Source of the DNA: an uncultured Ignavibacteria bacterium
Lineage (GTDB): Bacteria; Bacteroidota; Ignavibacteria; Kapaibacteriales; UBA2268
DNA length: 64,000 nucleotides
NCBI GenBank assembly: GCA_903862655.1
Contig: CAIOZA010000019.1
Span: 6,960-70,959, forward strand
Direction: 5' to 3'
Numbering within the stretch: the first letter of the stretch is position 1; every line of letters starts with the position of its first letter. Below the pieces are notes generated by a model. The model was not told where the DNA came from and searched no databases. It saw only the letters and a list, made by a program, of their open reading frames with translations. This document shows positions 8,165 through 46,783 of the stretch, in pieces. The position numbers were made by a program, and so were the translations under genes.

Positions 8165-11100
8165 TTAATTACTTTCTTTAATAATCTTGTTAATAGACGA
8201 ATTAAATTTGCTTTTTATGTTAACAAAGTAAACACCATCAGACTGCTCATTCAGATTGAGTATTGCTTCATTAACTCCTTCTTGAAGCTCAATAATACTT
8301 ACTTTTTGTCCGAAAATATTTGTTATTTCAATGATTGTTTTAGAATGACTTGGTGGCAATGAAATGTTAAACAATCCTTTACTTGGATTTGGTGAAATTA
8401 CTGCATTGTTAAAGTTTTCCGCTTCAATACCTGTTGTAATTATAAATTCATCTGACAAAGATTTACACCCATTAACGTCAGTGATTTCTACCTGATATTT
8501 CCCATTAGATTTCTGACTGTAGGATTGATTAGTTTCCCCGGTGAGAATTATTCCATCTTTAAACCATTGATAAGCAACAGCAGTTGATGATTTCAGAATT
8601 CCATTAGTCTGACTAATTGTCGGTTTAGCAGGAGCAGGCAACGATGTAAGTGTAATTGAATTGGTTGACGGCTTAACACATCCATCAATAGTAGTGCAAA
8701 CAACAGTATATGTTCCTGGTTTCAAAACTGTTATTTTTTTAGTTGTATCTCCGGTTGACCATTTATAATATTTATAACTAAAGCTATTGACCTGAAGATC
8801 GGCACCTACGCCTTCGCAGAAAGGGTTATTGCCAATTAGTTTGATATTATAATCAGCTGGGTTTGTAACAGTTACATTGATATCGGCAGATGTCGCTGAA
8901 CAGTTTTTCAAATCAGTAACAGTAAGATTAACTTTTGAACTTGCCTTCACCCAGATTGTCTTAGCAGTAGATCCATTAGACCACTTATAAGTTGGATAAC
9001 TATCCTTTGACTCAAGTTTTACACTGTCTCCAAAACAGAATTTAGTTTGACCGGTAACAATTAGTTCCGGAGCAGCTAAATTGCAATCATTAATTTTTGT
9101 TTCCCAAATTCCTCTACCATAAGTAGCCGCAAGCATTTTCGAGGTAGAATTGATGATTTTGAGGTCATTAACGATAACATTAGGCATTCCCTGGTTATAA
9201 GAATCCCATTGTGAAGATGAATTATCCCTGGTAAATACTCCGACATCAGTGCCTATATACAATCGGTCTAGAGAATTCTTCTGGTATTCGATGCAGTTTA
9301 CAGGTACATTCGGCAGACCTGCTGATAAGTTATCCCATTTTGTACCATTGTAGAAAAGGATTTTGTCAGTTGCTGAATAACCCGATAAAGTAACCCAGAA
9401 TTTTGATGGAGAACTTGGATGAACCATAATTGATGTTATATAATCCTGAGTTTGCCCAGCAGAAGTCCAAGTACCTCCACCTGAAGATGTTTTGTATATT
9501 TGATTGTATTTGCTAATATAGATGAAATTTGGATCTGTAGCTGATATTGCCATTGCATTAATTTTTATTGGAGTAGTTTCAGTAAAGTTTGAGATTTTTA
9601 CCCATGTTGAACCGGCATTTGTTGTCTTCCAGACATTCTGCATAGCTACATAAAGAATATTGGAATTTGTTGGATGGATAATATATGGAGTAACCCACGC
9701 TCCTTCCTCCTGAGTTCTATTAGAAGATATAATATTTGTAAAACTGTTTCCTCCATCTATTGATTTATTAATTTGACCATAGTATAAAGATGCATAAATA
9801 ATATTACTGTTGGTTTTGTCGATGATTGTTTCCATACCATCACCACCCATAATATTCTTCCAGTTAGTACCGTCATATTTATGAGTTCCATTATCTTGAG
9901 CGCCGGCTGTAATTATATTGGGATTTTGCTCTGACGAACTCAGACTATAGAACTGAGTTATCTGTAGCCCATTGCTAATGTCAGTCCAGTTTTTGCCCAA
10001 ATTTGTTGATTTATTTATACCCCCATCGGTACAGGCAAAAAGAACATTACTTGAATTAAAAGCTAACCAATGAATATCTGCATGCACCCATGGCAGGCCA
10101 AATCCACCTGTCCACTCTGCTATTGGGCTGAAGGCTTTGCCTCCATTTATTGATTTCCAGATATTAACACCTCCAATATAGACCTCATCTGAACTATTTG
10201 GATTAACAGCGATTGAAAGATCATATAATCCCTGAGCTGCTGTTCCTGAGCCATCAGCATAATAAGTTAAGTAATTTGGGGAAGTTGATTTATCTGAAAC
10301 CTTTAACCAATTAGTTCCGTCAGTAGTTTTCCAAACTGAATGAAAGTTGTAATCAGGCCATTCAGAACAAGCTAAAGCATATAATACCTTCGGTTGTGAT
10401 TTACAGGTTGCTAAATTTACTCGTCCTGCTCCATTTATTTCCAATTGAATAGCCAGATTACCGGCTGATTCAGTATATTTCCTTATTGAGTAAACATTGT
10501 TTGGTGAAATGAAAGTCCCATAAATATTTGTGGGGTCATCTGTTTTGAATTCCAAATCCCTACAAACATCTCCTGTAATCGATAACCATGAAGCACCACC
10601 ATCTGAAGATTTTGAAAAACCTTTATTGGATCCAACATAGACAAGATTTGCATTGGTTGGACTGATTAACAACCGATTAATCAAAACATTTTGCGAAATT
10701 TGATAACTCGATGAGGTGGTATTCCATGTCTGTCCAGCATCAGTTGATTTTAAAATTCCTATGCTATAGCTGAAATTAACTCCAAGAAAACCTGAAGATT
10801 CAGCGTCTCCGGTTGAAGCATATATAATATTCGGATTAGAAGGTGAGATTGCTATATCGGAGATACCAATTGATAGAACACCTGTTAAAGGAAGACTTGC
10901 CCACGAAGTACCTCCGTCAGTTGTTTTCCATATACCACCGGTAGCCGAGCCAACATAAATTATTGAATTATTGGTAGGATGAAAAGCAAGACAGCTTATT
11001 CTGCCGATTCCTGGTTGGGGCAGACCAGACGTTTGTGATGGTTTATTTGTTGGACCAATAATTTTCCAGTCAGCATTAGTCAACATTCTTGGAGATTGTT

Positions 11101-11389
11101 TATCCTGATTGAAATAGTTAATATATTCGGTTCTTAAAGAATTTAAATCAGGTATCTGATTTGTTTTCCACATTCTTGGAGCTAATAGCCATTCCAATCT
11201 TTTAAATTGCTTAAAACCACTTCCTTTTGAAGGCTTTTTATCTTTCCAATAATTGTTGAAAACTAATTGCAATTCTTTAAAATCAAATTCCTTTTGTTGG
11301 TTATAATTTTGAAGCCAATTTTGGGCATTTAAAGAACTGGTCAAAAAGTTAAATATGATGAAAATAATTAAAATTGATGACTTATTCAT
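8165..11389 (-). CDS. Secreted BNR/Asp-box repeat beta-propeller protein with T9SS C-terminal domain (tandem paralogue of 4923-8135)
   Basis: Same architecture and length (1074 aa) as the neighbour: signal peptide, Asp-box repeats (DGGTSW, DAGQTW, DGGASW, DGGNSF, NAGSTW, SGGGTW), CFGDSVKL/CEGVGADL Ig-like repeats with YKWSNG/YKWSTG, and C-terminal ...GVYFVNIKSKFNSSINKIIKESN. Confidence 0.7.
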   Translation of the reverse strand: MNKSSILIIFIIFNFLTSSLNAQNWLQNYNQQKEFDFKELQLVFNNYWKDKKPSKGSGFKQFKRLEWLLAPRMWKTNQIPDLNSLRTEYINYFNQDKQSPRMLTNADWKIIGPTNKPSQTSGLPQPGIGRISCLAFHPTNNSIIYVGSATGGIWKTTDGGTSWASLPLTGVLSIGISDIAISPSNPNIIYASTGDAESSGFLGVNFSYSIGILKSTDAGQTWNTTSSSYQISQNVLINRLLISPTNANLVYVGSNKGFSKSSDGGASWLSITGDVCRDLEFKTDDPTNIYGTFISPNNVYSIRKYTESAGNLAIQLEINGAGRVNLATCKSQPKVLYALACSEWPDYNFHSVWKTTDGTNWLKVSDKSTSPNYLTYYADGSGTAAQGLYDLSIAVNPNSSDEVYIGGVNIWKSINGGKAFSPIAEWTGGFGLPWVHADIHWLAFNSSNVLFACTDGGINKSTNLGKNWTDISNGLQITQFYSLSSSEQNPNIITAGAQDNGTHKYDGTNWKNIMGGDGMETIIDKTNSNIIYASLYYGQINKSIDGGNSFTNIISSNRTQEEGAWVTPYIIHPTNSNILYVAMQNVWKTTNAGSTWVKISNFTETTPIKINAMAISATDPNFIYISKYNQIYKTSSGGGTWTSAGQTQDYITSIMVHPSSPSKFWVTLSGYSATDKILFYNGTKWDNLSAGLPNVPVNCIEYQKNSLDRLYIGTDVGVFTRDNSSSQWDSYNQGMPNVIVNDLKIINSTSKMLAATYGRGIWETKINDCNLAAPELIVTGQTKFCFGDSVKLESKDSYPTYKWSNGSTAKTIWVKASSKVNLTVTDLKNCSATSADINVTVTNPADYNIKLIGNNPFCEGVGADLQVNSFSYKYYKWSTGDTTKKITVLKPGTYTVVCTTIDGCVKPSTNSITLTSLPAPAKPTISQTNGILKSSTAVAYQWFKDGIILTGETNQSYSQKSNGKYQVEITDVNGCKSLSDEFIITTGIEAENFNNAVISPNPSKGLFNISLPPSHSKTIIEITNIFGQKVSIIELQEGVNEAILNLNEQSDGVYFVNIKSKFNSSINKIIKESN

Positions 11390-22212: not shown

Positions 22213-22572
22213 GGGGATGAAACGGATTCGACGGGGTGATGGACGTCGGTCGCGGCATGTCGTGCTCAATCGGTGGTGCACGTAAATTCAACCGGTAGGC
22301 TTATAAATGCCGAAAACAATTACGCTTTAGCTGCATAATAACCAAAAGCAACTACATCTTATGATAAGTTTGCCCCTCGGCTAATCATTAGGTGTCGCAA
22401 ACAGATGGGCTGGTTCCAAATCTTGCTGTGGGAAGCGGAACAAGACAACACACAGATAAGCTTTTTCGACCTGCCGAGCGGTTAAGAAATTGACGAAAAT
22501 TATAGATCGGCTAAACATGTAGAGGCATCGAAAGAAGCTCTTCGGACGCGGGTTCAACTCCCGCCATCTCCA
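22213..22572 (+). ncRNA. ssrA: tmRNA (transfer-messenger RNA, SsrA); encoded tag peptide (A)ENNYALAA
   Basis: 5' end GGGGATGAAACGGATTCGACGGGG with G3:U wobble. 3' tRNA-like end GGACGCGGGTTCAACTCCCGCCATCTCCA (T-arm plus acceptor stem complementary to the 5' end). Internal tag ORF GCC GAA AAC AAT TAC GCT TTA GCT GCA TAA ends in the canonical YALAA-stop. Confidence 0.85.
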
Positions 22573-22585
22573 CTTTCTAAATCAT

Positions 22586-25534: not shown

Positions 25535-25736
25535 AAATCTCCTGTTCGAAATTTTTACAAATTTAATTAAATATTCAATAAAAACACTATTCATACAATA
25601 TTATTCAATTATTATCTTCTCAGCAAAGGTATTATTCACAATTCGGATGCTCCATAATAATTTTTTTACCTCAATGATCAGAAAGATCTTCATACTTATC
25701 AGACTTATTTTTTAACTCACTTAATTGGAGCTTTTG

Positions 25737-27308
25737 ATGAATTCGAAAGGCAAAATTCTTTGGATTGATGACGAGATTGAACTATTGCGAGCACACATCA
25801 TCCTTCTTCAACAAAGAGGTTATTCTGTAGAAACCGCATCTAATGGAGAAGATGCAATTGAGCTATACAGAACCAATCACTATGACCTGACTTTTCTCGA
25901 TGAATCAATGATTGGTATATCCGGACTGGACACACTGCCACTTTTGAAAGAGATAGATCCATCAACACCTGTAGTTATGGTTACAAAAAATGAAGCTGAG
26001 AGTGTTATGGAAGATGCTATTGGCAAAAAGATTGATGATTATCTTACAAAACCTGTTAATCCTGCGCAAATACTTGCTGCTTGCAAGAAGTATCTGGAAT
26101 CAGAAAGAATCAGTCAAAATAAAATTACTCAGGATTATATACAGGGATTAGGTGTGATTAATTCCAGATTAAATGAAACTTTATATTGGGATGACTGGCT
26201 CGATATTTATCAAAAGCTTGTGAATTGGTCAATTGAACTTGACAAGTACCCTCAGATAGGCTTTCAGCAAACATTGCAAGATCAATTTCGGGAATTTAAC
26301 TCAGCATTTTCAAAATTTGTCGAAGATAATTACCACGACTGGATATTCAATGAAAAAGATGAATTTACTCCTACTCTATCTCCAGGTATAGTAGAAAAAC
26401 ATTTGGTTCCTTTCCTGAAATCAGGAAAGCCAGTCTTCTTTATTGTTATAGATTGTATGAGAATCGATCAATGGCTCATGATGGAAGAATTATTGAGACC
26501 ATTCTATACATTCAAGAAAGACTATTATAGTGCCATTCTTCCAACAGCAACACCTTATGCAAGAAATGCTATTTTTGCCGGTCTTTTTCCACAAGATATT
26601 CAGAAACACTACCCTCAATATTGGGTGAACGAATTGAATACTGAAGAGACTAAGTTGAATGCTTTTGAGAAGGAGTTACTTGATGAACAATTGAAACGAA
26701 AGAAAATAGATTTAAGAACGCCTTTAAATTATATTAAGATACATGACACGGATTTTGGAAAAAAGATTGAAAATGATATTGGAAAATATACTAAAAGTCA
26801 TCTTACTGCAATAGTTATCAATGCTGTAGACATGATTGCGCATTCAAGGTCTGATTACGCAATTCTTAAAGAAATAGCACCTGATGAATCAGCATATAGA
26901 AGTCTTACACAATCTTGGTTTCAACATTCAAGTATATTTGGAATGCTGAAAACAATTTCAGAAAATAAGGATATTAAAGTTGTGATTACAACCGATCATG
27001 GTTCTATCAGATGCATGAGGGGCATAAAAGTAATTGGGGATAAAGACACGTCAACAAATCTTAGATACAAATTCGGAAAGAATGTAAAAGCTGAAGAGCG
27101 TTATGCAGTTCAGATAAAGGATCCTACAGAGCTAAGACTTCCCAAATTGGGCTTAACCGTAAATAACATAATAGCTAAAGAAGACTATTATTTTGTTTAC
27201 CCAACGGATTATCATTACTTTCTTCAAAGATACAGAGATAGTTTCCAGCATGGAGGCATTTCAATGGAAGAAATGATTGTTCCCGTAATCGAAATGGATC
27301 CAAGATAG
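25737..27308 (+). CDS. porX: PorX-like response regulator: CheY-like receiver domain fused to a PglZ (alkaline-phosphatase-superfamily) domain
   Basis: Receiver motifs (ILWIDDE...; DLTFLDESMIGISGLD phospho-acceptor region; VVMVTKN; K at ...DYLTKP) followed by a ~400-aa PglZ domain. This is the architecture and size of the T9SS regulator PorX. An in-frame TTG at 25725 is an alternative start. Confidence 0.75.
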   Translation: MNSKGKILWIDDEIELLRAHIILLQQRGYSVETASNGEDAIELYRTNHYDLTFLDESMIGISGLDTLPLLKEIDPSTPVVMVTKNEAESVMEDAIGKKIDDYLTKPVNPAQILAACKKYLESERISQNKITQDYIQGLGVINSRLNETLYWDDWLDIYQKLVNWSIELDKYPQIGFQQTLQDQFREFNSAFSKFVEDNYHDWIFNEKDEFTPTLSPGIVEKHLVPFLKSGKPVFFIVIDCMRIDQWLMMEELLRPFYTFKKDYYSAILPTATPYARNAIFAGLFPQDIQKHYPQYWVNELNTEETKLNAFEKELLDEQLKRKKIDLRTPLNYIKIHDTDFGKKIENDIGKYTKSHLTAIVINAVDMIAHSRSDYAILKEIAPDESAYRSLTQSWFQHSSIFGMLKTISENKDIKVVITTDHGSIRCMRGIKVIGDKDTSTNLRYKFGKNVKAEERYAVQIKDPTELRLPKLGLTVNNIIAKEDYYFVYPTDYHYFLQRYRDSFQHGGISMEEMIVPVIEMDPR

Positions 27309-27312
27309 AATT

Positions 27313-27352
27313 AAACAAGAAATTCCGGTTGAAAAATCGGAATTTCTTGTTT
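27313..27352 (+). terminator. Stem-loop (probable terminator) immediately after porX
   Basis: Perfect 15-bp inverted repeat AAACAAGAAATTCCG-N10-CGGAATTTCTTGTTT beginning 5 nt after the porX stop. The T-tract is weak (TAATCGTTTATTTC). Confidence 0.5.
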
Positions 27353-27710
27353 AATCGTTTATTTCAATATTTCTAAATTACTACTAAACATTCGCTGATA
27401 CCTGGCATTGGTAAAATTTTTGCGGTTTTTTTTCATTCTCCTCCTATTTTTCAGATCTACTTTGATCAATTCTTTGTCAACAGATCAGACAACCACTTTT
27501 TAATTCATCTATTAATTAAATTAAAATCTATTTTTAGTGTTCGTTCACATGGAAAGTGTTTCTTAAAGCATTTTTTTTGTAATATGCTATTCTTTTGGGA
27601 AATGTTTTCATTTTTTTGGGTAAACATTTAATCTTTAAATAGTTATAAAGACTTTCACTTATTAATTTGCGACAGAATGATACATATTTAAGCTAAAACC
27701 GAAAAAACCA

Positions 27711-27738
27711 CATAGTGTGTAAATTTTAACACACTATG
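27711..27738. promoter_or_regulatory. Perfect 10-bp-arm palindrome CATAGTGTGT-N8-ACACACTATG in the 0.8-kb AT-rich leader of the IPT/TIG gene
   Basis: Seen directly in the sequence: both arms are exact reverse complements. The element lies ~400 bp upstream of the 28121 start codon in an unusually long non-coding region. Confidence 0.3.
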
Positions 27739-28120
27739 AAGATAATTACACAAGTTCTAAAAAATAAACAGTAAAATTATTGACATATTAAAAAATAAAT
27801 TCAGGATAATTTGAATAAATATCTTCCCATATTTAGATAATAGCCAAGGTTATATTATTGTAAAATTTAGACTTACTAAATCCTTGTATTAACCATTAAT
27901 GTACTTTTTCAATTTTGTAACGGATACCTCACTTTCGGAACATAAATATATCATGAAGATCGATATTAGAATTTTGTTTTGATTGAGATATCAACAAGTT
28001 GCAATTTTTGGGAATATATGTAACATATCATTTCTTCTTGTTTCAAATATTGATTTATTAAAATGCTAAAGTTAATCTTCAATTTGATTTTTTTACATCA
28101 TAATATGCAAAGGTGGCATT

Positions 28121-30955
28121 ATGAAAAAAACTATTCTACTTCTGGCATTTCTTTTTTGTTCTACGTTACTTTTTGGGATAGAGTTTAAAGTAAATATTTT
28201 AATGACTGATGGCAGTTCAAAATCATTTAAACTTTCTGATATTGATAATATCAAAATCCTCGCAGGAAAAGATAATTGCATGATGAAGATTTTCTACGAA
28301 CATATATTAACCGATAATTTCCTAATCAAAAATATCGATTCGATAAGATTTGATGTTTCTCAATCACAACTACTGATAATTAAACTGACGAACCAATTGA
28401 AGAGTTATAAAGTTGCTGACATTGATAGTCTCAATTTTTTTATTCCGGCTACTCCAATACCACAAATTACAAGTATAAATCCAAATTCAGGAAAAGTTGG
28501 AGATGAAATGACAATCACAGGCACAAATTTTGGAGCAATAAAAGATAGTAATTTCCTATCATTCAAGAATACAAATGCTTCTATCTATTCTTCCTGGACT
28601 GATACTGAGATTAAAGTAAAAGTTCCTGCAGGTACATCCACTGGTCCAGTTTCAGTTACTATTGGTGGAGTAAAGAGCAATGAATTAAATTTCACATTGA
28701 TACATTACATTACATCAATTTCTCCAGTTTCTGGGAGATATGGGGATATCGTGACTATTAAAGGAATGAGTTTTGGCTCAGCTCAGAATCGAAATCTTGT
28801 AGTTTTTAATGGCATTAACGCTAAAGATTATACTTTATGGACAGATACAATTATTAAGGTGAAAGTTCCAAATGGAGTTAAAACAGACAAATTGTATGTA
28901 GAGGTTGATAGTATAAAAAGTAATGGGATTCTTTACACAATTTTACATAGTTTGTCTAGTATCTCGCCAACAGCTTCAAGAATTGGAGACACTATATCAA
29001 TCTCCGGAATTTCATTTGGAACCAAAAGGGATTCAAGCTATATTAGTTTCAATGCATTAAATGTAAAAGATTATATTTCATGGAGCGATACATTAGTAAA
29101 AGTTAAAGTTCCAATTGGAACTTTAACAGGGAAAGTATCTCTCACTTTAAATATGATTAAAAGTAATGAGATTGTGTTCTCGGTTGTACCTCAGATAATC
29201 CAATTGTCACCTGATTCAGCTGGAATTTCTCAGAATATCAGCATAATTGGAAATGGTTTCGGAAAACCTCAAGGAATCGGGATTGTTTCCTTTTCAGGAG
29301 TAAATGCAAAAGATTACCTTATTTGGGACGACACAGAAATAAGAGTTACAGTGCCTGATGGAGCAAAAACAGGCAATGTGTCGGTAACAGCAGGTGGCAA
29401 TATCAGCAACGAATTGAAATTTACCATAAAACCATTCATTACATCTATTAACCCATCATTCGCCAAACTTGGTGAGCAAATCACAATTAGCGGGTCAAAC
29501 TTTGGGAACACACAAGATGCAAATTTTGTTTCATTTTCTAAAGCAAATGGAAGCAATTATCTAAGTTGGAGTGATACTGAAATTAAATTATTAATTCCAA
29601 GTGCTGCCAATAGTGGAAAAGTATCGGTAACAATCGGTAATGTAAAGAGCAATGAAGTAATTCTTTTGATTATTCCTGAGATCACTAATATTAGTCCAAC
29701 AGCTGAAAAAATAGGTGAACTCGTGACAATAACAGGTAGAGGGTTTAATGATGGAATTGGGACAAGTTTCGTATCATTTTCCGGTGCAAATGCAATAGAT
29801 TATCAAAGTTGGTCTAGTACATCAATTTCAGTTAGAGTTCCATCAGGCGCAAGAACAGGAAAAGTATCGGTCACATCCAGTAACCAAAAAAGCAATGAAG
29901 TTGACTTTTCTATATTGCCTTCAATTTCAAGCATCATGCCTGGCAATGGATTAGTAGGTGATATTATTTTAATTACCGGTGCTAGCTTTGGAACAGTACA
30001 AGGAACTAGTTATGTTTCTTTCAATGGATCCAATGTTACCAATTATCAAAGTTGGACAGAATCAGAAATAAGAGTTTTTGTTCCTCAAGGTGCTACCAGT
30101 GGTAAAGTATATGTAATGGTTGGATCTGTAAAAAGTAATGAAGTTGATTTCACCATGACACCACAGATATCAAATATAACTCCCGATAGATCAAATCTTG
30201 GTGGACAGATTACAATTTCCGGGGCTAATTTTGGAGCTAGCAGAGGATCTAATTTTGTTTCATTCAATACTTTAGCTGCAACATCATATCAGAGTTGGAG
30301 TAATACATCTATAGTTGTTACTATTCCCAATGCTGCAGTTTCTGGGAAAGTATCTGTCACAGTAAGCAATATTAAAAGTAATGAAGTTGATTTCACTATT
30401 ACATCAGTTTTGATTGGAAACCAAGAGTGGATGACAAGAAATTTAGATGTTAGCACTTACCGAAATGGCGATCAAATACCCGAATGTACTGATGCAACAG
30501 AGTGGGAAAATCTTACAACTGGTGCTTGGTGCTATTATGCTAATGAATCCTCAAATGGTACTGTATATGGTAAACTATACAACTGGTTTGCAGTTAATGA
30601 TTCACGAAACTTGGCACCTTCAGGCTGGCATGTAGCGACAGATGCTGAATTTTCTACTCTTAGTGCAACTCTTAATGGTGATGCTATTTCAGGTGGAAAG
30701 ATGAAAGAAACCGGCAATACCCATTGGGCAAGTCCAAATACTAATGCAACGAATGAAAGTGGATTTACTGCGTTAGGGGCTGGATACAGATCAAATGGAT
30801 TTGCTCGCATAAATGAGGTTCTTGTTCTTTGGTCTTCTACTCAAAATGATGCAACCACTGCTTGGGCTAGAAATTTTTCCTATAATACAGGAGCTTTAGC
30901 TAGGAATGCACAATGGAAACAGGTAGGATTTTCAGTTAGGTGTCTTAAGGATTAA
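28121..30955 (+). CDS. Secreted protein with eight tandem IPT/TIG domains and a C-terminal Fibrobacter-succinogenes-major-paralogous (FISUMP) domain
   Basis: Signal peptide. Eight ~85-aa repeats, each starting I(T/S)SI(N/S)P..G..G(D/E)..TI.G..FG and ending GKVSVT....KSNE(V/L).F. C-terminal ~170 aa reads GNQEWMTRNLDV..YRNGD...WCYY...GKLYNW.A......APSGWHV.TDAEF.TL....G......GGKMKETG..HW..PNT.ATN.SGFTALGAGYR...G........LWSST.........AR.F.Y......R....K..GFSVRCLKD, the FISUMP signature. Confidence 0.8.
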   Translation: MKKTILLLAFLFCSTLLFGIEFKVNILMTDGSSKSFKLSDIDNIKILAGKDNCMMKIFYEHILTDNFLIKNIDSIRFDVSQSQLLIIKLTNQLKSYKVADIDSLNFFIPATPIPQITSINPNSGKVGDEMTITGTNFGAIKDSNFLSFKNTNASIYSSWTDTEIKVKVPAGTSTGPVSVTIGGVKSNELNFTLIHYITSISPVSGRYGDIVTIKGMSFGSAQNRNLVVFNGINAKDYTLWTDTIIKVKVPNGVKTDKLYVEVDSIKSNGILYTILHSLSSISPTASRIGDTISISGISFGTKRDSSYISFNALNVKDYISWSDTLVKVKVPIGTLTGKVSLTLNMIKSNEIVFSVVPQIIQLSPDSAGISQNISIIGNGFGKPQGIGIVSFSGVNAKDYLIWDDTEIRVTVPDGAKTGNVSVTAGGNISNELKFTIKPFITSINPSFAKLGEQITISGSNFGNTQDANFVSFSKANGSNYLSWSDTEIKLLIPSAANSGKVSVTIGNVKSNEVILLIIPEITNISPTAEKIGELVTITGRGFNDGIGTSFVSFSGANAIDYQSWSSTSISVRVPSGARTGKVSVTSSNQKSNEVDFSILPSISSIMPGNGLVGDIILITGASFGTVQGTSYVSFNGSNVTNYQSWTESEIRVFVPQGATSGKVYVMVGSVKSNEVDFTMTPQISNITPDRSNLGGQITISGANFGASRGSNFVSFNTLAATSYQSWSNTSIVVTIPNAAVSGKVSVTVSNIKSNEVDFTITSVLIGNQEWMTRNLDVSTYRNGDQIPECTDATEWENLTTGAWCYYANESSNGTVYGKLYNWFAVNDSRNLAPSGWHVATDAEFSTLSATLNGDAISGGKMKETGNTHWASPNTNATNESGFTALGAGYRSNGFARINEVLVLWSSTQNDATTAWARNFSYNTGALARNAQWKQVGFSVRCLKD
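28442..30430 (+). repeat. Eight in-frame tandem ~255-bp coding repeats (IPT/TIG domain array) inside the 28121-30955 CDS
   Basis: Protein-level periodicity of ~85 aa with conserved anchor residues. The repeats are diverged at the DNA level, so this is not a CRISPR or satellite repeat. Confidence 0.6.
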
Positions 30956-31062: not shown

Positions 31063-31521
31063 ATGAAAATATTTTTAATGTACTTTATTATGACAATTTC
31101 TTCCTGCATAATAGCGAATGCTCAGAGCGACACGTTGGTTATTACTAAGAAGAATTCGATAATTGAAAGATATTCTGTTTCACAGATTCAAAAGATTATA
31201 TTTGAGAATATTACAGATGTTCTAGAACATCAGTTCATTAACAAAAGCCTTCTATTGACAGGTAATTACCCTAACCCTTTTGCTGAAATGACAAATATCG
31301 ACTTTGAAATTTCAAGTGCTGGTAATGTTGAAGTCATTATCTTTGATAATTCTGGAAGCCAGATACAAATATTAAAATGTGAGAATTGTTCTTCAGGAAA
31401 GAATTCATTACTGTGGGATGGTTTTGACCTAAAAAAGAATAAAGTTCAATCCGGTATATATTACTATGAGGTGTGTTCCAAAAATGAAATCCTTAGCAAA
31501 CAAATGATTTTGGCAAAATAG
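31063..31521 (+). CDS. Minimal T9SS cargo: signal peptide, ~45-aa segment and a T9SS C-terminal sorting domain
   Basis: N-terminal signal peptide (MKIFLMYFIMTISSCIIANAQ). C-terminal ~85 aa (LLLTGNYPNPFAEMTNIDFEISSAGNVEVIIFDNSGSQIQIL...SGIYYYEV...) matches the Por_Secre_tail / T9SS type A CTD pattern (NYPNPF ... GIYFY...). Confidence 0.65.
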   Translation: MKIFLMYFIMTISSCIIANAQSDTLVITKKNSIIERYSVSQIQKIIFENITDVLEHQFINKSLLLTGNYPNPFAEMTNIDFEISSAGNVEVIIFDNSGSQIQILKCENCSSGKNSLLWDGFDLKKNKVQSGIYYYEVCSKNEILSKQMILAK

Positions 31522-31782
31522 TCGGCAATATTACGGAGTAAAAATATTTGAAATACTTAATGCACAATGGCCAAGTCATATGGGAAAGTTGTTATTGAGT
31601 TTATTCGCTAATGCTCATTGAACAGCATTCATGTTTTATGTGATACTTTTTATATATTTTCTAATAATTGATCTTAATTACTGAGTAAACATTTGTAGAG
31701 TTTTAAGGAGTATCTACAATATATAAAATTTGAATTTGTCATTAATTAAAAACAAATACTTTTTTATACAATTAGGAGATTA

Positions 31783-32517
31783 TTGATGAAATGGACTAAG
31801 CTACAACTCATTCTTGCCTTTATGGTATCAGTTTTAATGATTAATTCATGTCAAGATGATCCAGTTAATCCTGGAGACGATACAGCCAGTTATTTTCAAT
31901 TTAAAACAGGCAATTACTGGGTTTATAAAATTGATTCTCTTGATGCTAATCAAGCCATTGTTGTTGGGACTTCATCAACTGATTCAACTGTAGATGTCGG
32001 TGTTGAAATGAAATCCGGTAAATCAGCAAATAAGTTTGCAAATTATTATTCTGATGGCTCTAATGATGATGGCTATTTTGCTTTAGATGGTAAGAAACTA
32101 TATTCATTAATAGCAGATGTATCATCTGGAGGAGTTTCCCTACCAATTTCAGGATGGGTATTAATTTCAGACTTTGATGCTGCCACATGGACTGTCCTTG
32201 ACACTAGTCTTCCAATTCAGACTAATATGGGAGAAATAAACGCTAAAGTAACCGTTGTTGGTTCTAAAGGAATCCTAAAAAACATTACAGTAGGAACTTC
32301 TAGTATTTCATGCCAGGAATTTATTCAGACCATTTCTATTACAGCACAAGTAAGTGGTTTTACAATCCCAATAACCTTAAAGATTAAGTATTATTTTGGT
32401 AAAAATGTTGGTCTAGTACAAGTATCACAAGAAACTGCAAAGTATACAATTCCTTTACTGGGTGATCAATATCTTTTTGGCTTTATTAGATCATTGCAAA
32501 GATATAAAATCTCCTAA
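31783..32517 (+). CDS. Hypothetical lipoprotein
   Basis: Signal peptide with a lipobox Cys (LMINSCQDD); Ser/Thr/Gly-rich; no recognisable catalytic motifs. Confidence 0.6.
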   Translation: MMKWTKLQLILAFMVSVLMINSCQDDPVNPGDDTASYFQFKTGNYWVYKIDSLDANQAIVVGTSSTDSTVDVGVEMKSGKSANKFANYYSDGSNDDGYFALDGKKLYSLIADVSSGGVSLPISGWVLISDFDAATWTVLDTSLPIQTNMGEINAKVTVVGSKGILKNITVGTSSISCQEFIQTISITAQVSGFTIPITLKIKYYFGKNVGLVQVSQETAKYTIPLLGDQYLFGFIRSLQRYKIS

Positions 32518-42800: not shown

Positions 42801-44792
42801 TTAATAAAAGATATATTCAACTCTACGATTTTGCTGACGGTAGATTTCTGTTGAGTTTGGACAAATTGGTTTAGATTTACCTAGTCCAACTGTCTTAATT
42901 CTCGACTGATTTATTCCTGATTTTATTAAATATTCTTTTACAAAATTTGCTCGCTTTATTGACAATTGAATATTATCATTATCAGACCCAATATCATCTG
43001 TATGACCAAATAATTCAATACTTATTTCTGGAAAATTCGTAAGATAATATACGATGCTTTCAAGTTCTGGAATATATTTATTTGGTAGCTCATATTCAGC
43101 TAATTGAAATAAAATGTATTTCAATCTATAAACTGAATTAGGTTTAACTCTGGACATAATTAAATTTCTTTCAAAACTTACAGAATCTGATTCAGTCAAA
43201 TCGAATATTTCTGTTATAGGCAGAAAACCAGATTTGAAAGCTTGCAGCACAAATTGCCCTGAATGTTCAAATCTGCATTTATATACGCCGTTTATCTTAT
43301 CAGCAAGAGCTTTTCTAATAACTTCATTTCCATCTAAACTTCTAATAATTATCTCTGATTCAATTGGTTTTCCGGTTGAATCATCTTTAACTATTCCATT
43401 TATTGAAATTAATTTAAAAAGAGATGATTTATCTATAATTTTTGATTTGAAGATATCAGCGTCCCCAATCGAATTATGGTATGAAGATAAATAAACGAAA
43501 TCTCTGTTTGGAGAAATCCTGAAGTACGCATCCCATAATGATGTGCTTATATTTGGACCCAAGTTTTGAGGTATTGACCACTTTGTCCATGACTCATCTA
43601 ATCTTGTTGAAACAAAAATATCCTGCGATCCAAAACCACAGTGACCTTTACTTGAGAAATAGAGAGTTTTATTGTTCGTGTCCAGATAGGGAGTTATTTC
43701 GTCATCTGCAGTATTAATCACATCTCCTAGATTTAGAGGTTCCGACCAGGATGAATCGCTTTCAAGAAAACTGACATATAAATCCATACCACCTGTAGTG
43801 TTCTCTCCTTCTATTGACATCAATAGATATTTTCCATCTGATGAGATAAAATAATCAGCATTTGAATTTATATTCTGATAATTCTTGATGAGCATTGACT
43901 TTGGAGCTAGCCAATTTTTATCGAAAAATATTGAGTATGAAATTCCTTTGGTTACAGAACCATTGTCGTGATATGCATTTGTTAGAAATAATCTTCTTCC
44001 ATCTGGGGTTATCGAAAATGCAGAATTATTAAAAGAATTATTGATTGGTTCTCCCAAATTTTCAGCCATTAAGAAATTACCTTTTCTGTCTATTTTAGAA
44101 ATCCAAACATCTTGTTTATGCGCTGTTCCAAGGTTTTCAGGATGTTTGTCCCTAGTGAAATAAATATATTTTGAATCAGGAGAAATGATTGGTGTTATTT
44201 CAGCGGATTCAGAATTAATATTTGATCCTAAGCTCTCTGATTTATCGAATTTCTTAAAATCCTTTACTAAGTTGATATCCCAGCTTATCAAGTTATTATT
44301 ATCAGACATTCCAACCGCATCTATTTGAGGAATTTTTAAGCTGTCAAATACTAGTTCTAATTTCATACCTTTGACAAAGTAGCCTGTAAGTTCAAATGAT
44401 ATGTTGAATGCACCTGACTCACAATTATTCGATCTGTCGGGATTATTCATAACAATATGCTCGTTTCCTTCAGTATCTATAAGTATTATTTTTTTTACCG
44501 CACCAGGATAGTGATTTTCTACGATGCATATTTGACGTACTTGTTGGTATTTTGAGAATTCAACTTCTATCCATTCTTTTTGATGAATATCTTTCTTTTC
44601 CGGCATCCAAGCACATGGTGTAGTACCAAAACCTGATAAAACGCTCGGACTTCCTAGTATTTGTTTAGCTGCAAATTGCTTATCACCGGCTTGAGATGAA
44701 AAGCCTATGACTTTACTAGCCCACAAAACTTCTGCTTTGGAAAAGTGGTTAAAAATTATCAGAATTAGAATATATTTCAGAAATAATTTCAA
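42801..44792 (-). CDS. OmpA-family outer-membrane/peptidoglycan-associated protein with TolB-like (PD40) beta-propeller repeats
   Basis: Signal peptide. Repeated PD40-like blades (ISPDSKYIYFTRD, ITPDGRRLFLTN, ISSDGKYLLMS, ISPNRDFVYLSS). A carboxypeptidase-regulatory-like beta-sandwich. C-terminal OmpA domain (...ELFGHTDDIGSDNDNIQLSIKRANFVKEYL...). Confidence 0.75.
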   Translation of the reverse strand: MKLFLKYILILIIFNHFSKAEVLWASKVIGFSSQAGDKQFAAKQILGSPSVLSGFGTTPCAWMPEKKDIHQKEWIEVEFSKYQQVRQICIVENHYPGAVKKIILIDTEGNEHIVMNNPDRSNNCESGAFNISFELTGYFVKGMKLELVFDSLKIPQIDAVGMSDNNNLISWDINLVKDFKKFDKSESLGSNINSESAEITPIISPDSKYIYFTRDKHPENLGTAHKQDVWISKIDRKGNFLMAENLGEPINNSFNNSAFSITPDGRRLFLTNAYHDNGSVTKGISYSIFFDKNWLAPKSMLIKNYQNINSNADYFISSDGKYLLMSIEGENTTGGMDLYVSFLESDSSWSEPLNLGDVINTADDEITPYLDTNNKTLYFSSKGHCGFGSQDIFVSTRLDESWTKWSIPQNLGPNISTSLWDAYFRISPNRDFVYLSSYHNSIGDADIFKSKIIDKSSLFKLISINGIVKDDSTGKPIESEIIIRSLDGNEVIRKALADKINGVYKCRFEHSGQFVLQAFKSGFLPITEIFDLTESDSVSFERNLIMSRVKPNSVYRLKYILFQLAEYELPNKYIPELESIVYYLTNFPEISIELFGHTDDIGSDNDNIQLSIKRANFVKEYLIKSGINQSRIKTVGLGKSKPICPNSTEIYRQQNRRVEYIFY

Positions 44793-44863: not shown

Positions 44864-46783
44864 ATGACGATGAAGATAATATCTAAATTGAATCTATCGA
44901 TTATTCTCTTTCTAACAGCCATTACAATATACATAATGACTGCCGCACCGGATCTCATGTTTACAGATTCAGGTGAACTCGCCGGTGTATGCGTAACCTT
45001 GGGTATAGCTCACCCAACAGGTTATCCACTATTCGCCATTATCGGACATTTATTTTCTCTTATTCCTATGGGTTTGAGCAAAATATATCAGCTCAATTTA
45101 ATGGCTTCGTTCTTCACGGCACTATCTTCGGTAGTTTTTTTTCAAACATTACTTATTGTTTTTGAATTAGTCAACAAAAAGAAAAATCAGCAGAAAACTA
45201 AGAATAAACAAAGTCAGGTAAATGAATCAAACCTTTTAGAAAATAGAAATATTCTGCTCATTTCTTTTTTCACATCTTTAATATATTCTTTTGCCACAAC
45301 TGTCTGGCAACAAGCTAATGCTATTGAAGTTTATTCATTACAAGCTATGATGTTTAATCTTGTAATCTGGTCAATTTTAAAATCATCCTCAGCCAAAGAA
45401 AATCAATTCAAATTTTATATTTTTACTGAATTTTTATTGGGGTTAAGTTTTACAAACCACATGCAAACAGTCCTGCTGATTCCGGGAGTCCTATATTTAT
45501 ACTTATTCGGTATCGGAGATTCACATAAATTTGATAAGTTAAAATTTAAAGAAATCCTTTGGTTATTTATCCCATTTGTTATTGGATTGAGTCTTATATT
45601 GTATCTTCCTCTGAGAAGTATGTCTATGCCTGATTTTAACTGGGGCTTTGTTTCAAGAGGCTGGAGTAAGTTCATATATCATGCATCTGGCAAGCAATAT
45701 CAGATTTGGATGTTCTCTGATAGTGCCTCCATATCAACAAATCTTGGTAAATTTTTCTCCCTACTTCCTTACCAGCTTGGCTGGATTGGGCTAGTTCCTT
45801 TTTTGCTCGGAATTTACTTTTTATTCAAGCAGAACAGAAAGTTACTTTTCTTTCTTCTAATTTTATTATTCACTTGTCTATCCTATAGTGTTAATTATAG
45901 TATTCATGATATAGATTCATATTTTCTTCTTGCTTTTATTTCGATTATCCTATTAACTGGGACAGGATTATTTTTTGTAATTTCTAAGTATCCAAAATTA
46001 GTTGCAGCAATTGTAATAATTCCAATAATTTCGCTAATACAAAATTTCGATTCAAATGATAATTCTAAAAATTATCTAGTTCCAGAATATAGCAGAATTC
46101 TTGGAGATAACCTTGAACCAAATGCTATTATTATTTCAGCTCAATGGGATTACTGGTGTTCTGCTTTTTGGTACAAGCAGAAAGTTGAAGGTTACCGACC
46201 TGATGTTGTTCTTCTTGAAAAGGAATTGTTACGTAGAACATGGTATCTAGAGCAATTCAAGAAATGGTACCCAGCAACAGCTAAAACAGTTGAGAATGAA
46301 GTAAATTTGTATCTGGGACAACTTGAATTATTCGAATCTGAGAAGGAGTATAATCCTGTCCTGATTCAGCAGTATTATGTAGGACTAATAAATGCTTTGA
46401 TAGACAAGAACTTTGGTAAAAGACCAATTTATGTTACCATTGATGTGGTAGAGAATCCTACAGATGCAGACATTGCTTCAAAATATCAAAAAATCCCACA
46501 GGGTTTTGCATTTCGACTCGAGAAAGATAATAAAATTTACCAACCTAATCTCGACAAAATTGATATTTCTAAATTCCTTGAATTCAAAAAAGACAGAAAT
46601 AATCATCTTGTAGAGGGCATTTTGAGTGTTGCATCATTAAACGTTACAAACATTGGTCGCTATGCCCAAGCAACGAATAATACAGTAACAGCACGTAAGT
46701 CCTATGAAATGGCTCTGAAGATTGATCGGTCGAATCAAAATGCGCAAATGGGGTTGCAGCAGTTATCGAATATCAGGCAATAG
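44864..46783 (+). CDS. DUF2723 / TMEM260-like polytopic membrane protein (GT-C-fold glycosyltransferase-like) with C-terminal TPR region
   Basis: N-terminal loop APDLMFTDSGELAGVCVTLGIAHPTGYPLFAI is the hallmark of the DUF2723 family (acidic DxGE loop after TM1, then GIAHPxGYPL). About 11 TM helices, then a soluble ~240-aa C-terminal domain. Confidence 0.7.
   Translation: MTMKIISKLNLSIILFLTAITIYIMTAAPDLMFTDSGELAGVCVTLGIAHPTGYPLFAIIGHLFSLIPMGLSKIYQLNLMASFFTALSSVVFFQTLLIVFELVNKKKNQQKTKNKQSQVNESNLLENRNILLISFFTSLIYSFATTVWQQANAIEVYSLQAMMFNLVIWSILKSSSAKENQFKFYIFTEFLLGLSFTNHMQTVLLIPGVLYLYLFGIGDSHKFDKLKFKEILWLFIPFVIGLSLILYLPLRSMSMPDFNWGFVSRGWSKFIYHASGKQYQIWMFSDSASISTNLGKFFSLLPYQLGWIGLVPFLLGIYFLFKQNRKLLFFLLILLFTCLSYSVNYSIHDIDSYFLLAFISIILLTGTGLFFVISKYPKLVAAIVIIPIISLIQNFDSNDNSKNYLVPEYSRILGDNLEPNAIIISAQWDYWCSAFWYKQKVEGYRPDVVLLEKELLRRTWYLEQFKKWYPATAKTVENEVNLYLGQLELFESEKEYNPVLIQQYYVGLINALIDKNFGKRPIYVTIDVVENPTDADIASKYQKIPQGFAFRLEKDNKIYQPNLDKIDISKFLEFKKDRNNHLVEGILSVASLNVTNIGRYAQATNNTVTARKSYEMALKIDRSNQNAQMGLQQLSNIRQ

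What the first reader, a model, noticed from the sequence alone, without database searches (positions are those of the whole stretch)
28121..30955. Unusual architecture: eight tandem IPT/TIG domains capped by a FISUMP domain, without a T9SS CTD
The FISUMP (Fibrobacter succinogenes major paralogous) domain normally occurs as a short lipoprotein module. Here it terminates a ~750-aa stalk of eight diverged IPT/TIG Ig-like repeats, each with strictly conserved anchors (I.SI.P..G..G..I.I.G..FG ... GKVSVT ... KSNE). This is an extended adhesin/receptor-like design. Neighbouring secreted proteins carry T9SS CTDs but this one does not, implying a different export or anchoring route. The ~255-bp coding repeats could also permit copy-number variation by recombination.
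Basis: seen in the sequence. Interest (0 to 1): 0.55.

Follow-up and report, generated by a model that had tools for sequence, protein, structure and literature searches.

The report
Stalked lectin protein with separate secretion tag
This gene encodes a long-stalked, lectin-headed surface-type protein that is common in Ignavibacteria-like bacteria and has no type IX secretion tag of its own, but it almost always sits beside a tiny gene that is little more than such a tag, which suggests (unproven) that the tag is supplied by a partner protein.

Summary
ORF 28121-30955 (+, 944 aa) contains a signal peptide, a 93-aa N-terminal module, eight IPT/TIG domains at a rigid 81-aa period, and a full-length FISUMP domain that ends at the last residue. 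It has no T9SS CTD.

Two parts of the interpretation fail.
- The architecture is not unusual. TIGxN+FISUMP recurs in dozens of Ignavibacteria/Kapabacteria proteins, and more than 10 orthologues (47-75% identical) all keep exactly eight TIG units.
- Copy-number variation by recombination is unlikely. The units share 48-61% nucleotide identity, the period is 243 bp rather than 255, and units are positionally orthologous.

It is also not a lipoprotein: the consensus signal peptide ends LFA|Q and the Cys is not conserved.

The N-terminal module has no Pfam family and always lies at residues ~20-113. It defines a small clade-specific family (181 representatives) whose members end in binding heads, and about 95% lack a CTD. 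These genes are adjacent to a 152-aa gene, "s" (window 31063-31521), made of a signal peptide, one N-module-like unit and a T9SS CTD: 14/20 loci versus 1/60 controls. Rare proteins fuse the N-module, the s-unit and a CTD in one chain.

My best guess is that "s" docks to the N-module and supplies the export and anchoring signal in trans. This is inferred from genomics only. No diversity-generating retroelement is present.

The parts
28121..28177 (+). Signal peptide (aa 1-19, MKKTILLLAFLFCSTLLFG). It looks like an SPase I type and has no conserved lipobox.
   Evidence: Read from the sequence. The orthologue alignment A1 gives the consensus ...LFA|Q, and Cys13 is not conserved. No signal-peptide predictor was available.
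28178..28456 (+). N-module (aa 20-112): three tandem ~31-aa beta units (h.h..DG..K.Y.L.DID.I.F). It has no Pfam family and is proposed to be the docking/anchoring module.
   Evidence: No Pfam hit. hhalign self-comparison finds an internal repeat shifted ~31 aa, P=1.5e-5. The AF2 model has pLDDT 83.9 with 8 strands and no PDB fold match. An exhaustive search finds 181 representatives, always at aa ~20-113.
28457..30400 (+). Stalk of eight IPT/TIG Ig-like domains (aa 113-760) with an exact 81-aa / 243-bp period. Unit boundaries are 28457, 28700, 28943, 29186, 29429, 29672, 29915 and 30158.
   Evidence: Pfam TIG x8, E=3.7e-74. Period and identities come, and positional orthology.
30401..30952 (+). 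C-terminal FISUMP (Fib_succ_major) head, aa 761-944. It has a C-type-lectin-like fold and is the putative ligand-binding domain. It ends at the stop codon, so there is no CTD.
   Evidence: PF09603 full length and TIGR02145 above cutoff. AF2 pLDDT 96.1. Nearest solved fold is the Legionella Lcl C-terminal domain 8q4e, prob 0.98, followed by C-type lectins. Phage FISUMP and DUF1566 proteins match in BFVD.
31063..31521 (+). Partner gene 's' (152 aa): signal peptide (aa 1-20), one N-module-like unit QSDTLVITKKNSIIERYSVSQIQKIIFENIT (aa 21-53), a variable linker, and a type-A T9SS CTD (aa ~66-152).
   Evidence: Por_Secre_tail, TIGR04183 and FlgD_ig hits. Adjacent on the same strand to N-module genes in 14/20 loci versus 1/60 controls, p=3.5e-10. 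Reciprocal look-ups give 3/4. hhalign aligns the s unit to N-module unit 1 with P=6e-5.
27309..28120 (.). An 812-bp AT-rich non-coding gap between PorX and the gene. It holds a strong terminator-like hairpin after PorX (27310-27355) and a 93-bp stretch (27713-27804) conserved with a relative.
   Evidence: No Rfam family matches.

Best explanation
The gene encodes a Sec-exported 'lollipop' binding protein of an Ignavibacteria/Kapabacteria-type bacterium that carries a T9SS.

Shown:
- It has an SPase-I-type signal peptide.
- A 93-aa clade-specific N-terminal module is built from three ~31-aa beta units.
- A rigid stalk of eight TIG Ig-like domains follows. By my own estimate, not computed here, eight units would span roughly 25-30 nm if extended.
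- A C-terminal FISUMP head has a C-type-lectin-like fold.
- The protein has no CTD.
- It belongs to a modular family with the plan [N-module]-[0-12 TIG]-[binding head]. The head can be FISUMP, FGE-sulfatase-like, Lcl_C, Laminin_G, LRR or CBM96.

Inferred:
- The head binds a glycan or another surface ligand. The most variable segment among orthologues is the last ~40 residues, which is where related DGR-diversified lectin folds place their binding site.

Inferred, and the key hypothesis:
- The N-module docks, probably by beta-sheet augmentation, onto the single homologous unit of the co-encoded 152-aa protein 's'.
- 's' is essentially a cargo-less T9SS CTD. It would provide the T9SS signal in trans, allowing co-export of the folded complex, and/or provide a surface anchor once PorU-type processing has linked its ~45-aa remnant to the cell surface.
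- The CTD-less lectin would thereby be displayed on the cell surface.
For: Architecture.

Head fold and a ligand-recognition role:
- The AF2 model has pLDDT 96.
- The best solved match is the Lcl C-terminal domain (prob 0.98). PMC11162425 describes that domain as C-type-lectin-like, glycosaminoglycan-binding, and sitting on a stalk with an N-terminal surface-binding region.
- Phage proteins carry FISUMP or DUF1566 heads.
- Fib_succ_major is grouped with DUF1566 as a lectin-fold DGR target (PMC5758913).
- Alternative heads in the same family are all binding modules.

Partner hypothesis:
1. 's' lies within 192 bp on the same strand as an N-module gene in 14/20 distinct loci versus 1/60 loci whose FISUMP genes lack the N-module, Fisher p=3.5e-10. 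The gene order can flip while the pairing is kept.
2. Starting from independently found s homologues, 3 of 4 are adjacent to N-module genes.
3. Rosetta-stone fusions exist. P0254, P0266, P0216 and P0193 carry an N-terminal N-module and a C-terminal [s-unit + CTD]. P0262 is the N-module fused directly to a CTD.
4. The s unit is homologous to N-module units: hhalign P=6e-5 against unit 1 and 4e-4 against unit 3.
5. About 95% of N-module proteins lack their own CTD.
6. The genome uses a T9SS: PorX, a PorE-like protein and several CTD cargoes are in the window.
Against: - There is no direct evidence of a physical s/N-module interaction.
- The hhalign probabilities are modest (65% and 35%).
- 6 of 20 N-module loci lack an adjacent s gene, and one s gene (P0130) stands alone. 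This is compatible with action in trans but weakens strict pairing.
- Co-export of a CTD-less partner through the T9SS has not been described in the literature I could search.
- No ligand can be named.
- The signal-peptide type was judged by eye only.
Confidence: 0.45

Rival explanations
1. Lcl-like route. The protein leaves the cell by another pathway (T2SS, vesicles or lysis), and the N-module itself binds the cell surface (LPS or outer membrane), as the N-terminal region of Legionella Lcl does. Under this view 's' is merely a co-regulated small T9SS substrate, for example a related matrix or adhesion peptide, and not a carrier.
For: Lcl has the same logic: an N-terminal surface-binding region, a stalk and a DUF1566 lectin-like head. 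It is T2SS-secreted and then re-binds the surface (PMC11162425). The N-module is always N-terminal. Some N-module genes lack an adjacent s.
Against: This does not explain why s shares a homologous unit with the N-module. It does not explain why N-module, s-unit and CTD are fused in single proteins. It does not explain the highly specific adjacency (p=3.5e-10). No T2SS genes were seen in the window, although 64 kb cannot exclude them.
Confidence: 0.25
2. Periplasmic protein. With a Sec signal and no outer-membrane targeting signal, the protein stays in the periplasm, and its lectin-like head binds peptidoglycan or periplasmic glycans.
For: The protein has no CTD, no lipobox and no beta-barrel. 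Strictly, only Sec export is supported by the sequence.
Against: By my own estimate, not computed here, an extended 8-TIG stalk would be about as long as, or longer than, a typical periplasm is wide. Family heads (LRR, Laminin_G, CBM96, FGE-like lectin, phage-type FISUMP) are typical of extracellular recognition. There is genetic and fusion linkage to a T9SS CTD.
Confidence: 0.12
3. The gene is a target of a diversity-generating retroelement. The FISUMP C-terminus would be a variable region that is hypermutated to change ligand specificity.
For: Fib_succ_major/DUF1566 domains are a recognised class of DGR variable-protein domains (PMC5758913).
Against: No template-repeat-like copy of any part of the last 555 nt exists anywhere in the 64-kb window; blastn with word size 7 returns only chance matches of 16 nt or less. 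No reverse transcriptase appeared among the 38 window proteins that were domain-scanned, which does not cover every ORF in the window. Orthologue alignment shows ordinary divergence.
Confidence: 0.02
4. One reading: a contingency adhesin whose stalk length varies between strains by recombination among the ~250-bp coding repeats.
For: Across the wider family the TIG number ranges from 0 to 12, so units have been gained and lost over evolutionary time. Lcl repeat numbers do vary among Legionella strains.
Against: Nucleotide identity between units is 48-61%. TRF detects no repeat. The longest shared exact run is 23 nt, found once, and the next longest is 15 nt. All orthologues from 47 to 75% identity have exactly 8 positionally orthologous units.
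Confidence: 0.03

Closest known systems
Legionella pneumophila collagen-like adhesin Lcl (DUF1566/Lcl_C head; PDB 8q4e; PMC11162425)
   Same: Both follow the 'lollipop' design: an N-terminal region that holds the protein on the bacterial surface, an elongated repetitive stalk, and a C-terminal C-type-lectin-like head. Lcl-CTD is the best solved structural match to the FISUMP model (prob 0.98). One N-module family member carries an Lcl_C head in place of FISUMP.
   Different: The Lcl stalk is a trimeric collagen triple helix, not monomeric TIG domains. Its N-terminal anchor is an amphipathic helix, not a beta-repeat module. It is exported by the T2SS. Sequence similarity is undetectable and the structural match is distant (TM 0.33-0.44).
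Canonical FISUMP / Fib_succ_major proteins (TIGR02145, PF09603) of Fibrobacter and Bacteroidota
   Same: The C-terminal domain is a full-length match above threshold. It has an inferred extracytoplasmic location and conserved Cys residues.
   Different: The literature describes these as short proteins that often have a lipoprotein signal (PMC5758913; PMC4704652). Here there is an SPase-I signal, an extra N-module and an 8-TIG stalk. In the loci from Chitinophagaceae, Flavobacterium and similar taxa, the FISUMP genes lack both the N-module and the s partner.
[quoted passage not shown] P. gingivalis RgpB; Por_Secre_tail TIGR04183)
   Same: It occurs in the same organism group and the same genomic setting: PorX is next door and CTD cargoes are nearby. 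The partner 's' is a bona fide Por_Secre_tail protein, and rare family members carry the CTD in cis.
   Different: The defining C-terminal CTD is absent from this protein. If it uses the T9SS, the signal would have to be supplied in trans, which the searched literature does not describe.
Tat 'hitchhiker' co-export (e.g. E. coli PaoABC, HybOC) as a mechanistic analogue only
   Same: A folded, signal-less subunit is exported by binding a partner that carries the targeting signal (PMC4273604, listed).
   Different: It involves a different membrane, machinery and signal. It is cited only as a precedent for the logic, and there is no homology.
DGR variable proteins with CLec2-type (DUF1566/Fib_succ_major) domains, e.g. 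Legionella LdtA
   Same: They share the domain class for the C-terminal ligand-binding head (PMC5758913).
   Different: No template repeat, and no reverse transcriptase among the proteins scanned, is present in the window. LdtA is a lipoprotein.

Membership tests
IPT/TIG domain (PF01833) | Match to the Pfam profile above the gathering score, as repeated ~80-90-aa Ig-like units | tested here: met
   245 bits against a cutoff of 20.9, with 8 stretches at an exact 81-aa period.
FISUMP / Fib_succ_major (PF09603, TIGR02145) | Full-length match above the curated cutoffs | tested here: met
   PF09603 scores 147 bits (cutoff 33.9) over profile 1-187/187. TIGR02145 scores 90 bits (cutoff 41.65).
FISUMP / Fib_succ_major (PF09603, TIGR02145) | Typical context: a short protein with a lipoprotein signal peptide | tested here: not met
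   The protein is 944 aa. There is no lipobox, Cys13 is not conserved, and the orthologue consensus is LFA|Q. This feature is typical of the family but not defining for the domain.
C-type lectin-like fold (CLec; DUF1566/Lcl_C relatives) | Structural similarity of the head to solved CLec-like domains | tested here: inconclusive
T9SS type-A cargo | C-terminal Por_Secre_tail / TIGR04183 domain | tested here: not met
   No CTD hit was found, and FISUMP ends at residue 944. The neighbouring gene s does meet this feature.
T9SS type-A cargo | Secretion dependent on the T9SS, with CTD cleavage and surface attachment | not testable with these tools
   This needs genetics and proteomics in a cultured relative.
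DGR target (variable protein) | A nearby template repeat nearly identical to the 3' variable region, with adenine-specific differences, plus a reverse transcriptase | tested here: not met
   No repeat of the last 555 nt occurs in the 64-kb window. No RT appeared among the proteins scanned, which do not cover every ORF.
N-module / s gene-pair family (defined here) | A three-unit N-module directly after the signal peptide, and an adjacent same-strand ~152-aa gene encoding one unit plus a T9SS CTD | tested here: met
   The N-module spans aa 20-112. s lies at 31063-31521, 108 bp downstream.
LIC10067 family lipoprotein (NF047769) | Score above the equivalog cutoff | tested here: not met
   129.7 bits against a cutoff of 200. 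The match is to the TIG repeats only.

The most novel reading that the evidence does not exclude
The 152-aa 's' protein is a dedicated carrier/anchor. It is a cargo-less T9SS CTD preceded by a single docking unit that binds the three-unit N-module of CTD-less lectin-headed proteins. It would take them through the type IX translocon as a folded complex and then tether them to the cell surface. This would be the first case of a T9SS secretion signal supplied in trans ('hitchhiking'), and it would define a new docking pair (N-module/s-unit) analogous to cohesin-dockerin.
Probability: 0.3. Interest if true: 0.8.

Novelty: new variant of a known kind. Interest (0 to 1): 0.55.

Why it matters
Taken on its own, the protein is one more uncharacterised multi-Ig, lectin-headed surface protein. 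That is useful for annotating Ignavibacteria/Kapabacteria genomes but not surprising.

What could matter is the conserved pairing of CTD-less binding proteins with a mini-protein that is essentially a T9SS signal plus one docking unit, together with fusion proteins that join the pieces. All T9SS cargo is currently thought to carry its own CTD. A trans-supplied CTD would change how T9SS secretomes are predicted, because CTD-less proteins would be missed. It would also reveal a new modular surface-display system and offer a small docking pair for engineering display in Bacteroidota-like hosts.

The hypothesis is directly testable with AlphaFold-Multimer and simple pull-downs.

Tried and rejected
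1. Co-folding s with the N-module as a linker fusion with 14 paired sequences (A3).
3. The word-indexed homologue search with the N-module profile returned nothing. The exhaustive representative search replaced it.
4. Sequence searches of the FISUMP domain against PDB, with a single sequence and with a profile, gave no relatives.
5. The DGR hypothesis was rejected because no template repeat exists in the window.
6. The recombination/copy-number hypothesis was rejected.
7. The lipoprotein hypothesis was rejected from the alignment.
8. PorX adjacency as a functional link was rejected. PorX is upstream only in the window, and relatives have other genes there.
9. I looked for remnants of the beta-lactamase-CTD and TIG3-FGE genes, which flank the pair in relatives, in the window's intergenic gaps. 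None were found.
10. Rfam on the whole window found only the tmRNA and nothing in the 812-bp upstream gap.
11. An exact look-up of the window protein's own contig found nothing on record, so the source organism is inferred from relatives only.
Full report
**1. Observation**

The stated coordinates match an ORF exactly: 28121..30955 on the + strand, 944 aa.
- Pfam finds IPT/TIG (PF01833) in eight stretches (E=3.7e-74). It also finds a full-length Fib_succ_major domain (PF09603) at residues 763-943, covering profile 1-187/187, E=8.5e-43.
- NCBIfam confirms FISUMP (TIGR02145) at 90 bits against a cutoff of 41.65. It also matches the TIG-like 'choice-of-anchor Z' repeat.
- No T9SS C-terminal domain (CTD) model matches. 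FISUMP ends on the last residue, so there is no room for one.

The repeat starts fall at residues 116, 197, 278, 359, 440, 521, 602 and 683.
- Units share 36-54% amino-acid identity (mean 45%) and 48-61% nucleotide identity (mean 55%).
- About ten positions are invariant across all eight units.
- Tandem Repeats Finder sees nothing at the DNA level.

- The gene immediately upstream (25725-27308) is PorX, at 689 bits against a cutoff of 300.
- The gene immediately downstream (31063-31521, 152 aa) has a Por_Secre_tail CTD.
- Two ~1070-aa BNR/sortilin proteins with CTDs lie at 4.9-11.4 kb.
- A PorE-like OmpA protein lies at 42.8-44.8 kb, although it scores below the family cutoff.

**2. Is the architecture unusual? 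No**

A search of 5.8 billion proteins returned 297 hits. About 36 of the top 40 contain both TIG and FISUMP, with lengths of 548-1354 aa. Where named, they come from Ignavibacteria, Kapabacteria or 'Bacteroidota bacterium' MAGs. The exact protein is already in NCBI/ENA, unannotated.

I built my own HMMs for each module and found these architectures:
- N-T3..12-F, where N is the N-terminal module described in section 5
- multi-head forms such as N-F-T-F-T-F
- N-T3 followed by an FGE-sulfatase domain

FISUMP always terminates the protein.

The 8-TIG form is an orthogroup. Ten members at 48-75% identity to the window protein align end to end, each with exactly eight units.

**3. Copy-number variation? 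Unlikely**

- Same-position units are more alike between orthologues (53%) than units at different positions (43%).
- No orthologue shows homogenised repeats; the highest within-protein unit identity is 60%.
- The longest exact nucleotide run shared by any two units is 23 nt, found once between units 7 and 8. The next longest is 15 nt.

The array is therefore ancient and stable in this lineage, although unit numbers have changed across the wider family over long timescales.

**4. Not a lipoprotein and not a DGR target**

The orthologue consensus signal peptide ends ...LFA|Q, and the window protein has ...LLFG|IEF. Cys13 lies inside the hydrophobic core without a lipobox and is replaced in most orthologues. 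A +1 Gln after SPase I cleavage fits the Bacteroidetes Q-rule, which is also high in Ignavibacterium (PMC5837995).

Fib_succ_major/DUF1566 domains are a recognised class of lectin-fold targets of diversity-generating retroelements (PMC5758913), so I checked for one.
- The window contains no template-repeat-like copy of any part of the last 555 nt.
- No reverse transcriptase appeared among the window proteins I scanned, which do not cover every ORF.

**5. The N-terminal module**

Residues 20-112 are not TIG. They have no Pfam family even at E=10. They consist of three ~31-aa units, each a beta-hairpin followed by an 'x-D-I-D-x-I-x-F' strand. The profile self-comparison gives off-diagonal hits shifted by ~31 residues, P=1.5e-5.

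AlphaFold2 with a 32-sequence alignment gives an all-beta domain (8 strands, pLDDT 84, pTM 0.70). It has no meaningful match in the PDB; the best E is 0.5.

An exhaustive HMMER search of 1.84 billion representatives finds only 181 proteins (110 at E<=1e-10). The module always lies at residues ~20-113, directly after the signal peptide.

What follows the module varies:
- FISUMP alone is the commonest form, at about 300 aa.
- Other forms have TIG arrays plus FISUMP, FGE-sulfatase-like domains, Laminin_G_3, LRR, Lcl_C or CBM96.
- Of 110 representatives of at least 200 aa, 59 end in FISUMP and only 5 carry a Por_Secre_tail.

The N-module therefore marks a family of binding-headed proteins, about 95% of which lack a CTD.

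**6. The conserved partner gene**

In the window and in four orthologous loci, the only conserved neighbour is a 152-aa gene on the same strand. It lies downstream in two loci and upstream in three, while all other neighbours differ.

This 's' protein consists of:
- a signal peptide
- a highly conserved 32-aa segment, QSDTLVIKLKNNQVEKIAVSQIQKIKFENIT
- a variable linker of ~10 aa
- a type-A CTD

Evidence for the pairing:
- Among 80 distinct loci fetched from species-representative genomes, 14 of 20 with an N-module gene have a full-length s gene within 192 bp on the same strand. Only 1 of 60 loci whose FISUMP genes lack the N-module does, Fisher p=3.5e-10.
- Starting instead from independently retrieved s homologues, 3 of 4 look-ups found s directly adjacent to an N-module gene: TIG8-FISUMP, a 311-aa FISUMP protein, and TIG3-FGE. 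The fourth stood alone.
- Profile-profile comparison aligns the mature part of s in register with N-module unit 1 (P=6e-5, probability 65%) and with unit 3 (P=4e-4).
- An HMM of the s unit hits the s family (36 hits in proteins of 180 aa or less, duplicates not removed). It also hits a position 84-102 residues from the C-terminus, immediately before the CTD, in four large proteins that also start with the N-module: P0266, P0216, P0193 and P0254. P0262 is simply the N-module fused to a CTD.

These last proteins are classic Rosetta-stone fusions linking the N-module, the s unit and the T9SS CTD.

**7. The head**

The FISUMP domain models with very high confidence (pLDDT 96.1, pTM 0.91).
- The nearest solved structure is the C-terminal domain of the Legionella collagen-like adhesin Lcl (8q4e): probability 0.98 but E=0.018 and TM 0.33/0.44.
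- Next come a Bdellovibrio fibre-tip domain and then animal and snake C-type lectins at low probability.
- The Lcl paper describes its head as C-type-lectin-like and glycosaminoglycan-binding, on a stalk, with an N-terminal region that holds the protein on the bacterial surface (PMC11162425).
- In the viral structure library the model matches FISUMP domains in long phage proteins (46% identity, TM 0.93), then phage DUF1566 proteins.

All of this fits a ligand-recognition head, but no ligand can be named. In Fibrobacter the domain has only been proposed to act in cellulose binding or as a cohesin analogue (PMC4704652).

**8. Mechanism**

Shown: the domain plan, Sec-type export, the absence of a CTD, family membership, the gene pairing, the fusions, and unit homology.

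Inferred:
- (a) The TIG stalk projects a lectin-like head that binds a glycan or surface ligand.
- (b) The N-module docks onto the s unit.
- (c) Through s, the protein is exported by the T9SS and/or tethered to the surface after CTD processing.

I put about 0.45 on the overall picture and about 0.3 on true co-export or anchoring through s.

The main rival (0.25) is an Lcl-like route in which the N-module binds the surface directly after export by another pathway. Periplasmic retention (0.12) is disfavoured by the stalk length, the types of head domain and the CTD linkage. The DGR and copy-number ideas are essentially excluded for this locus.

**9. Comparison and novelty**

The two named domains are known, and their combination is already abundant though unannotated in databases. 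The finding as written is therefore an ordinary new member of a known kind.

The N-module (no Pfam family, no PDB fold match) and its pairing with a cargo-less CTD protein were not found in the literature I could search. They would be a new variant of T9SS cargo handling if confirmed.

**10. Context**

The window is ordinary chromosome:
- NADH dehydrogenase subunits, RuvA, FeoB and CTP synthase
- a tmRNA at 22213-22575
- RadC, PlsY, GpsA and succinate dehydrogenase

G+C content is 29-39%.

The nearest relatives (L011, L004 and the P0122 locus) are collinear from the gene through PlsY, GpsA and Band_7. They differ in carrying a beta-lactamase-CTD gene upstream and a TIG3-FGE-sulfatase gene just after s, both of which the window lacks without remnants.

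Noticed in passing
window 27309-28120: An unusually long (812 bp) AT-rich non-coding gap lies between PorX and the TIG-FISUMP gene. It contains a 20-bp-stem terminator-like hairpin right after PorX (27310-27355). It also contains a 93-bp stretch (27713-27804, including hairpin 27711-27738) that is 81% identical to intergenic DNA in relative L004 (3952-4043). No Rfam family matches. It could be a regulatory element or a small RNA.
   Followed up: partly
window 31521-31783, compared with L004 9209-11035, L011 8432-10258 and the P0122 locus: Close relatives carry a 608-aa N-module/TIG3/FGE-sulfatase gene between 's' and the 244-aa gene. The window lacks it cleanly and no remnants were detected. 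The beta-lactamase+CTD gene found upstream in relatives is also missing here.
   Followed up: yes
window 31783-32517: A 244-aa protein with a lipoprotein-like N-terminus (…MINSC|QDD) and no Pfam or NCBIfam family. It is conserved in synteny immediately after the pair in L004, L011 and the P0122 locus.
   Followed up: no
window 4923-8135 and 8165-11389 (- strand): Two tandem paralogous ~1070-aa BNR/sortilin-Vps10-like proteins, each with a Por_Secre_tail CTD, so they are ordinary T9SS cargo.
   Followed up: partly
window 42801-44792 (- strand): A 663-aa PD40/OmpA protein matches PorE (T9SS) and the CHU_0125 OmpA family at about 190 bits, well below the curated cutoffs of 600-620. It may be a divergent PorE of this lineage.
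   Followed up: no
window 22213-22575 (+): A tmRNA gene (Rfam RF00023, 168 bits, full length).
   Followed up: no
window 52064-53668 (+) and 44864-46783 (+): A 534-aa ORF has no Pfam or NCBIfam match. It lies in the lowest-GC segment of the window (28.5% at 52-54 kb). Separately, a 639-aa TMEM260-like putative protein O-mannosyltransferase is present.
   Followed up: no
loci L006, L009-L013, L019, L025, L036, L062, L064 (records CAZSHX01, CAYXFU01, CAZXYS01, CAZSWR01): Several MAG records titled 'uncultured Hyphomicrobiales bacterium' carry Ignavibacteria/Kapabacteria-type genes (N-module proteins, T9SS CTD proteins). The titles look like automated mislabels.
   Followed up: no
P0151 (495 aa) and locus L015 3490-13834: P0151 has N-module, FISUMP, an s-type unit and then ~144 more residues with no CTD hit, which is an odd intermediate architecture. 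L015 has one s gene followed by four consecutive N-module genes (NFTF, NF, NFTFTFFTF, NFTFTF), suggesting that one s may serve several clients.
   Followed up: partly
BFVD hits A0A6J5LVS1, A0A6J5N676, A0A1B1IUD2: FISUMP domains occur in long proteins of uncultured tailed phages, with up to 46% identity to this head. They may be receptor-binding proteins, which hints at exchange of head domains between phages and these bacteria.
   Followed up: no
JGI annotations of s homologues (P0125, P0126, P0129, P0131): The 152-aa s proteins are auto-annotated as 'flagellar hook assembly protein FlgD' because the CTD resembles the FlgD Ig-like domain. This is a systematic misannotation.
   Followed up: yes
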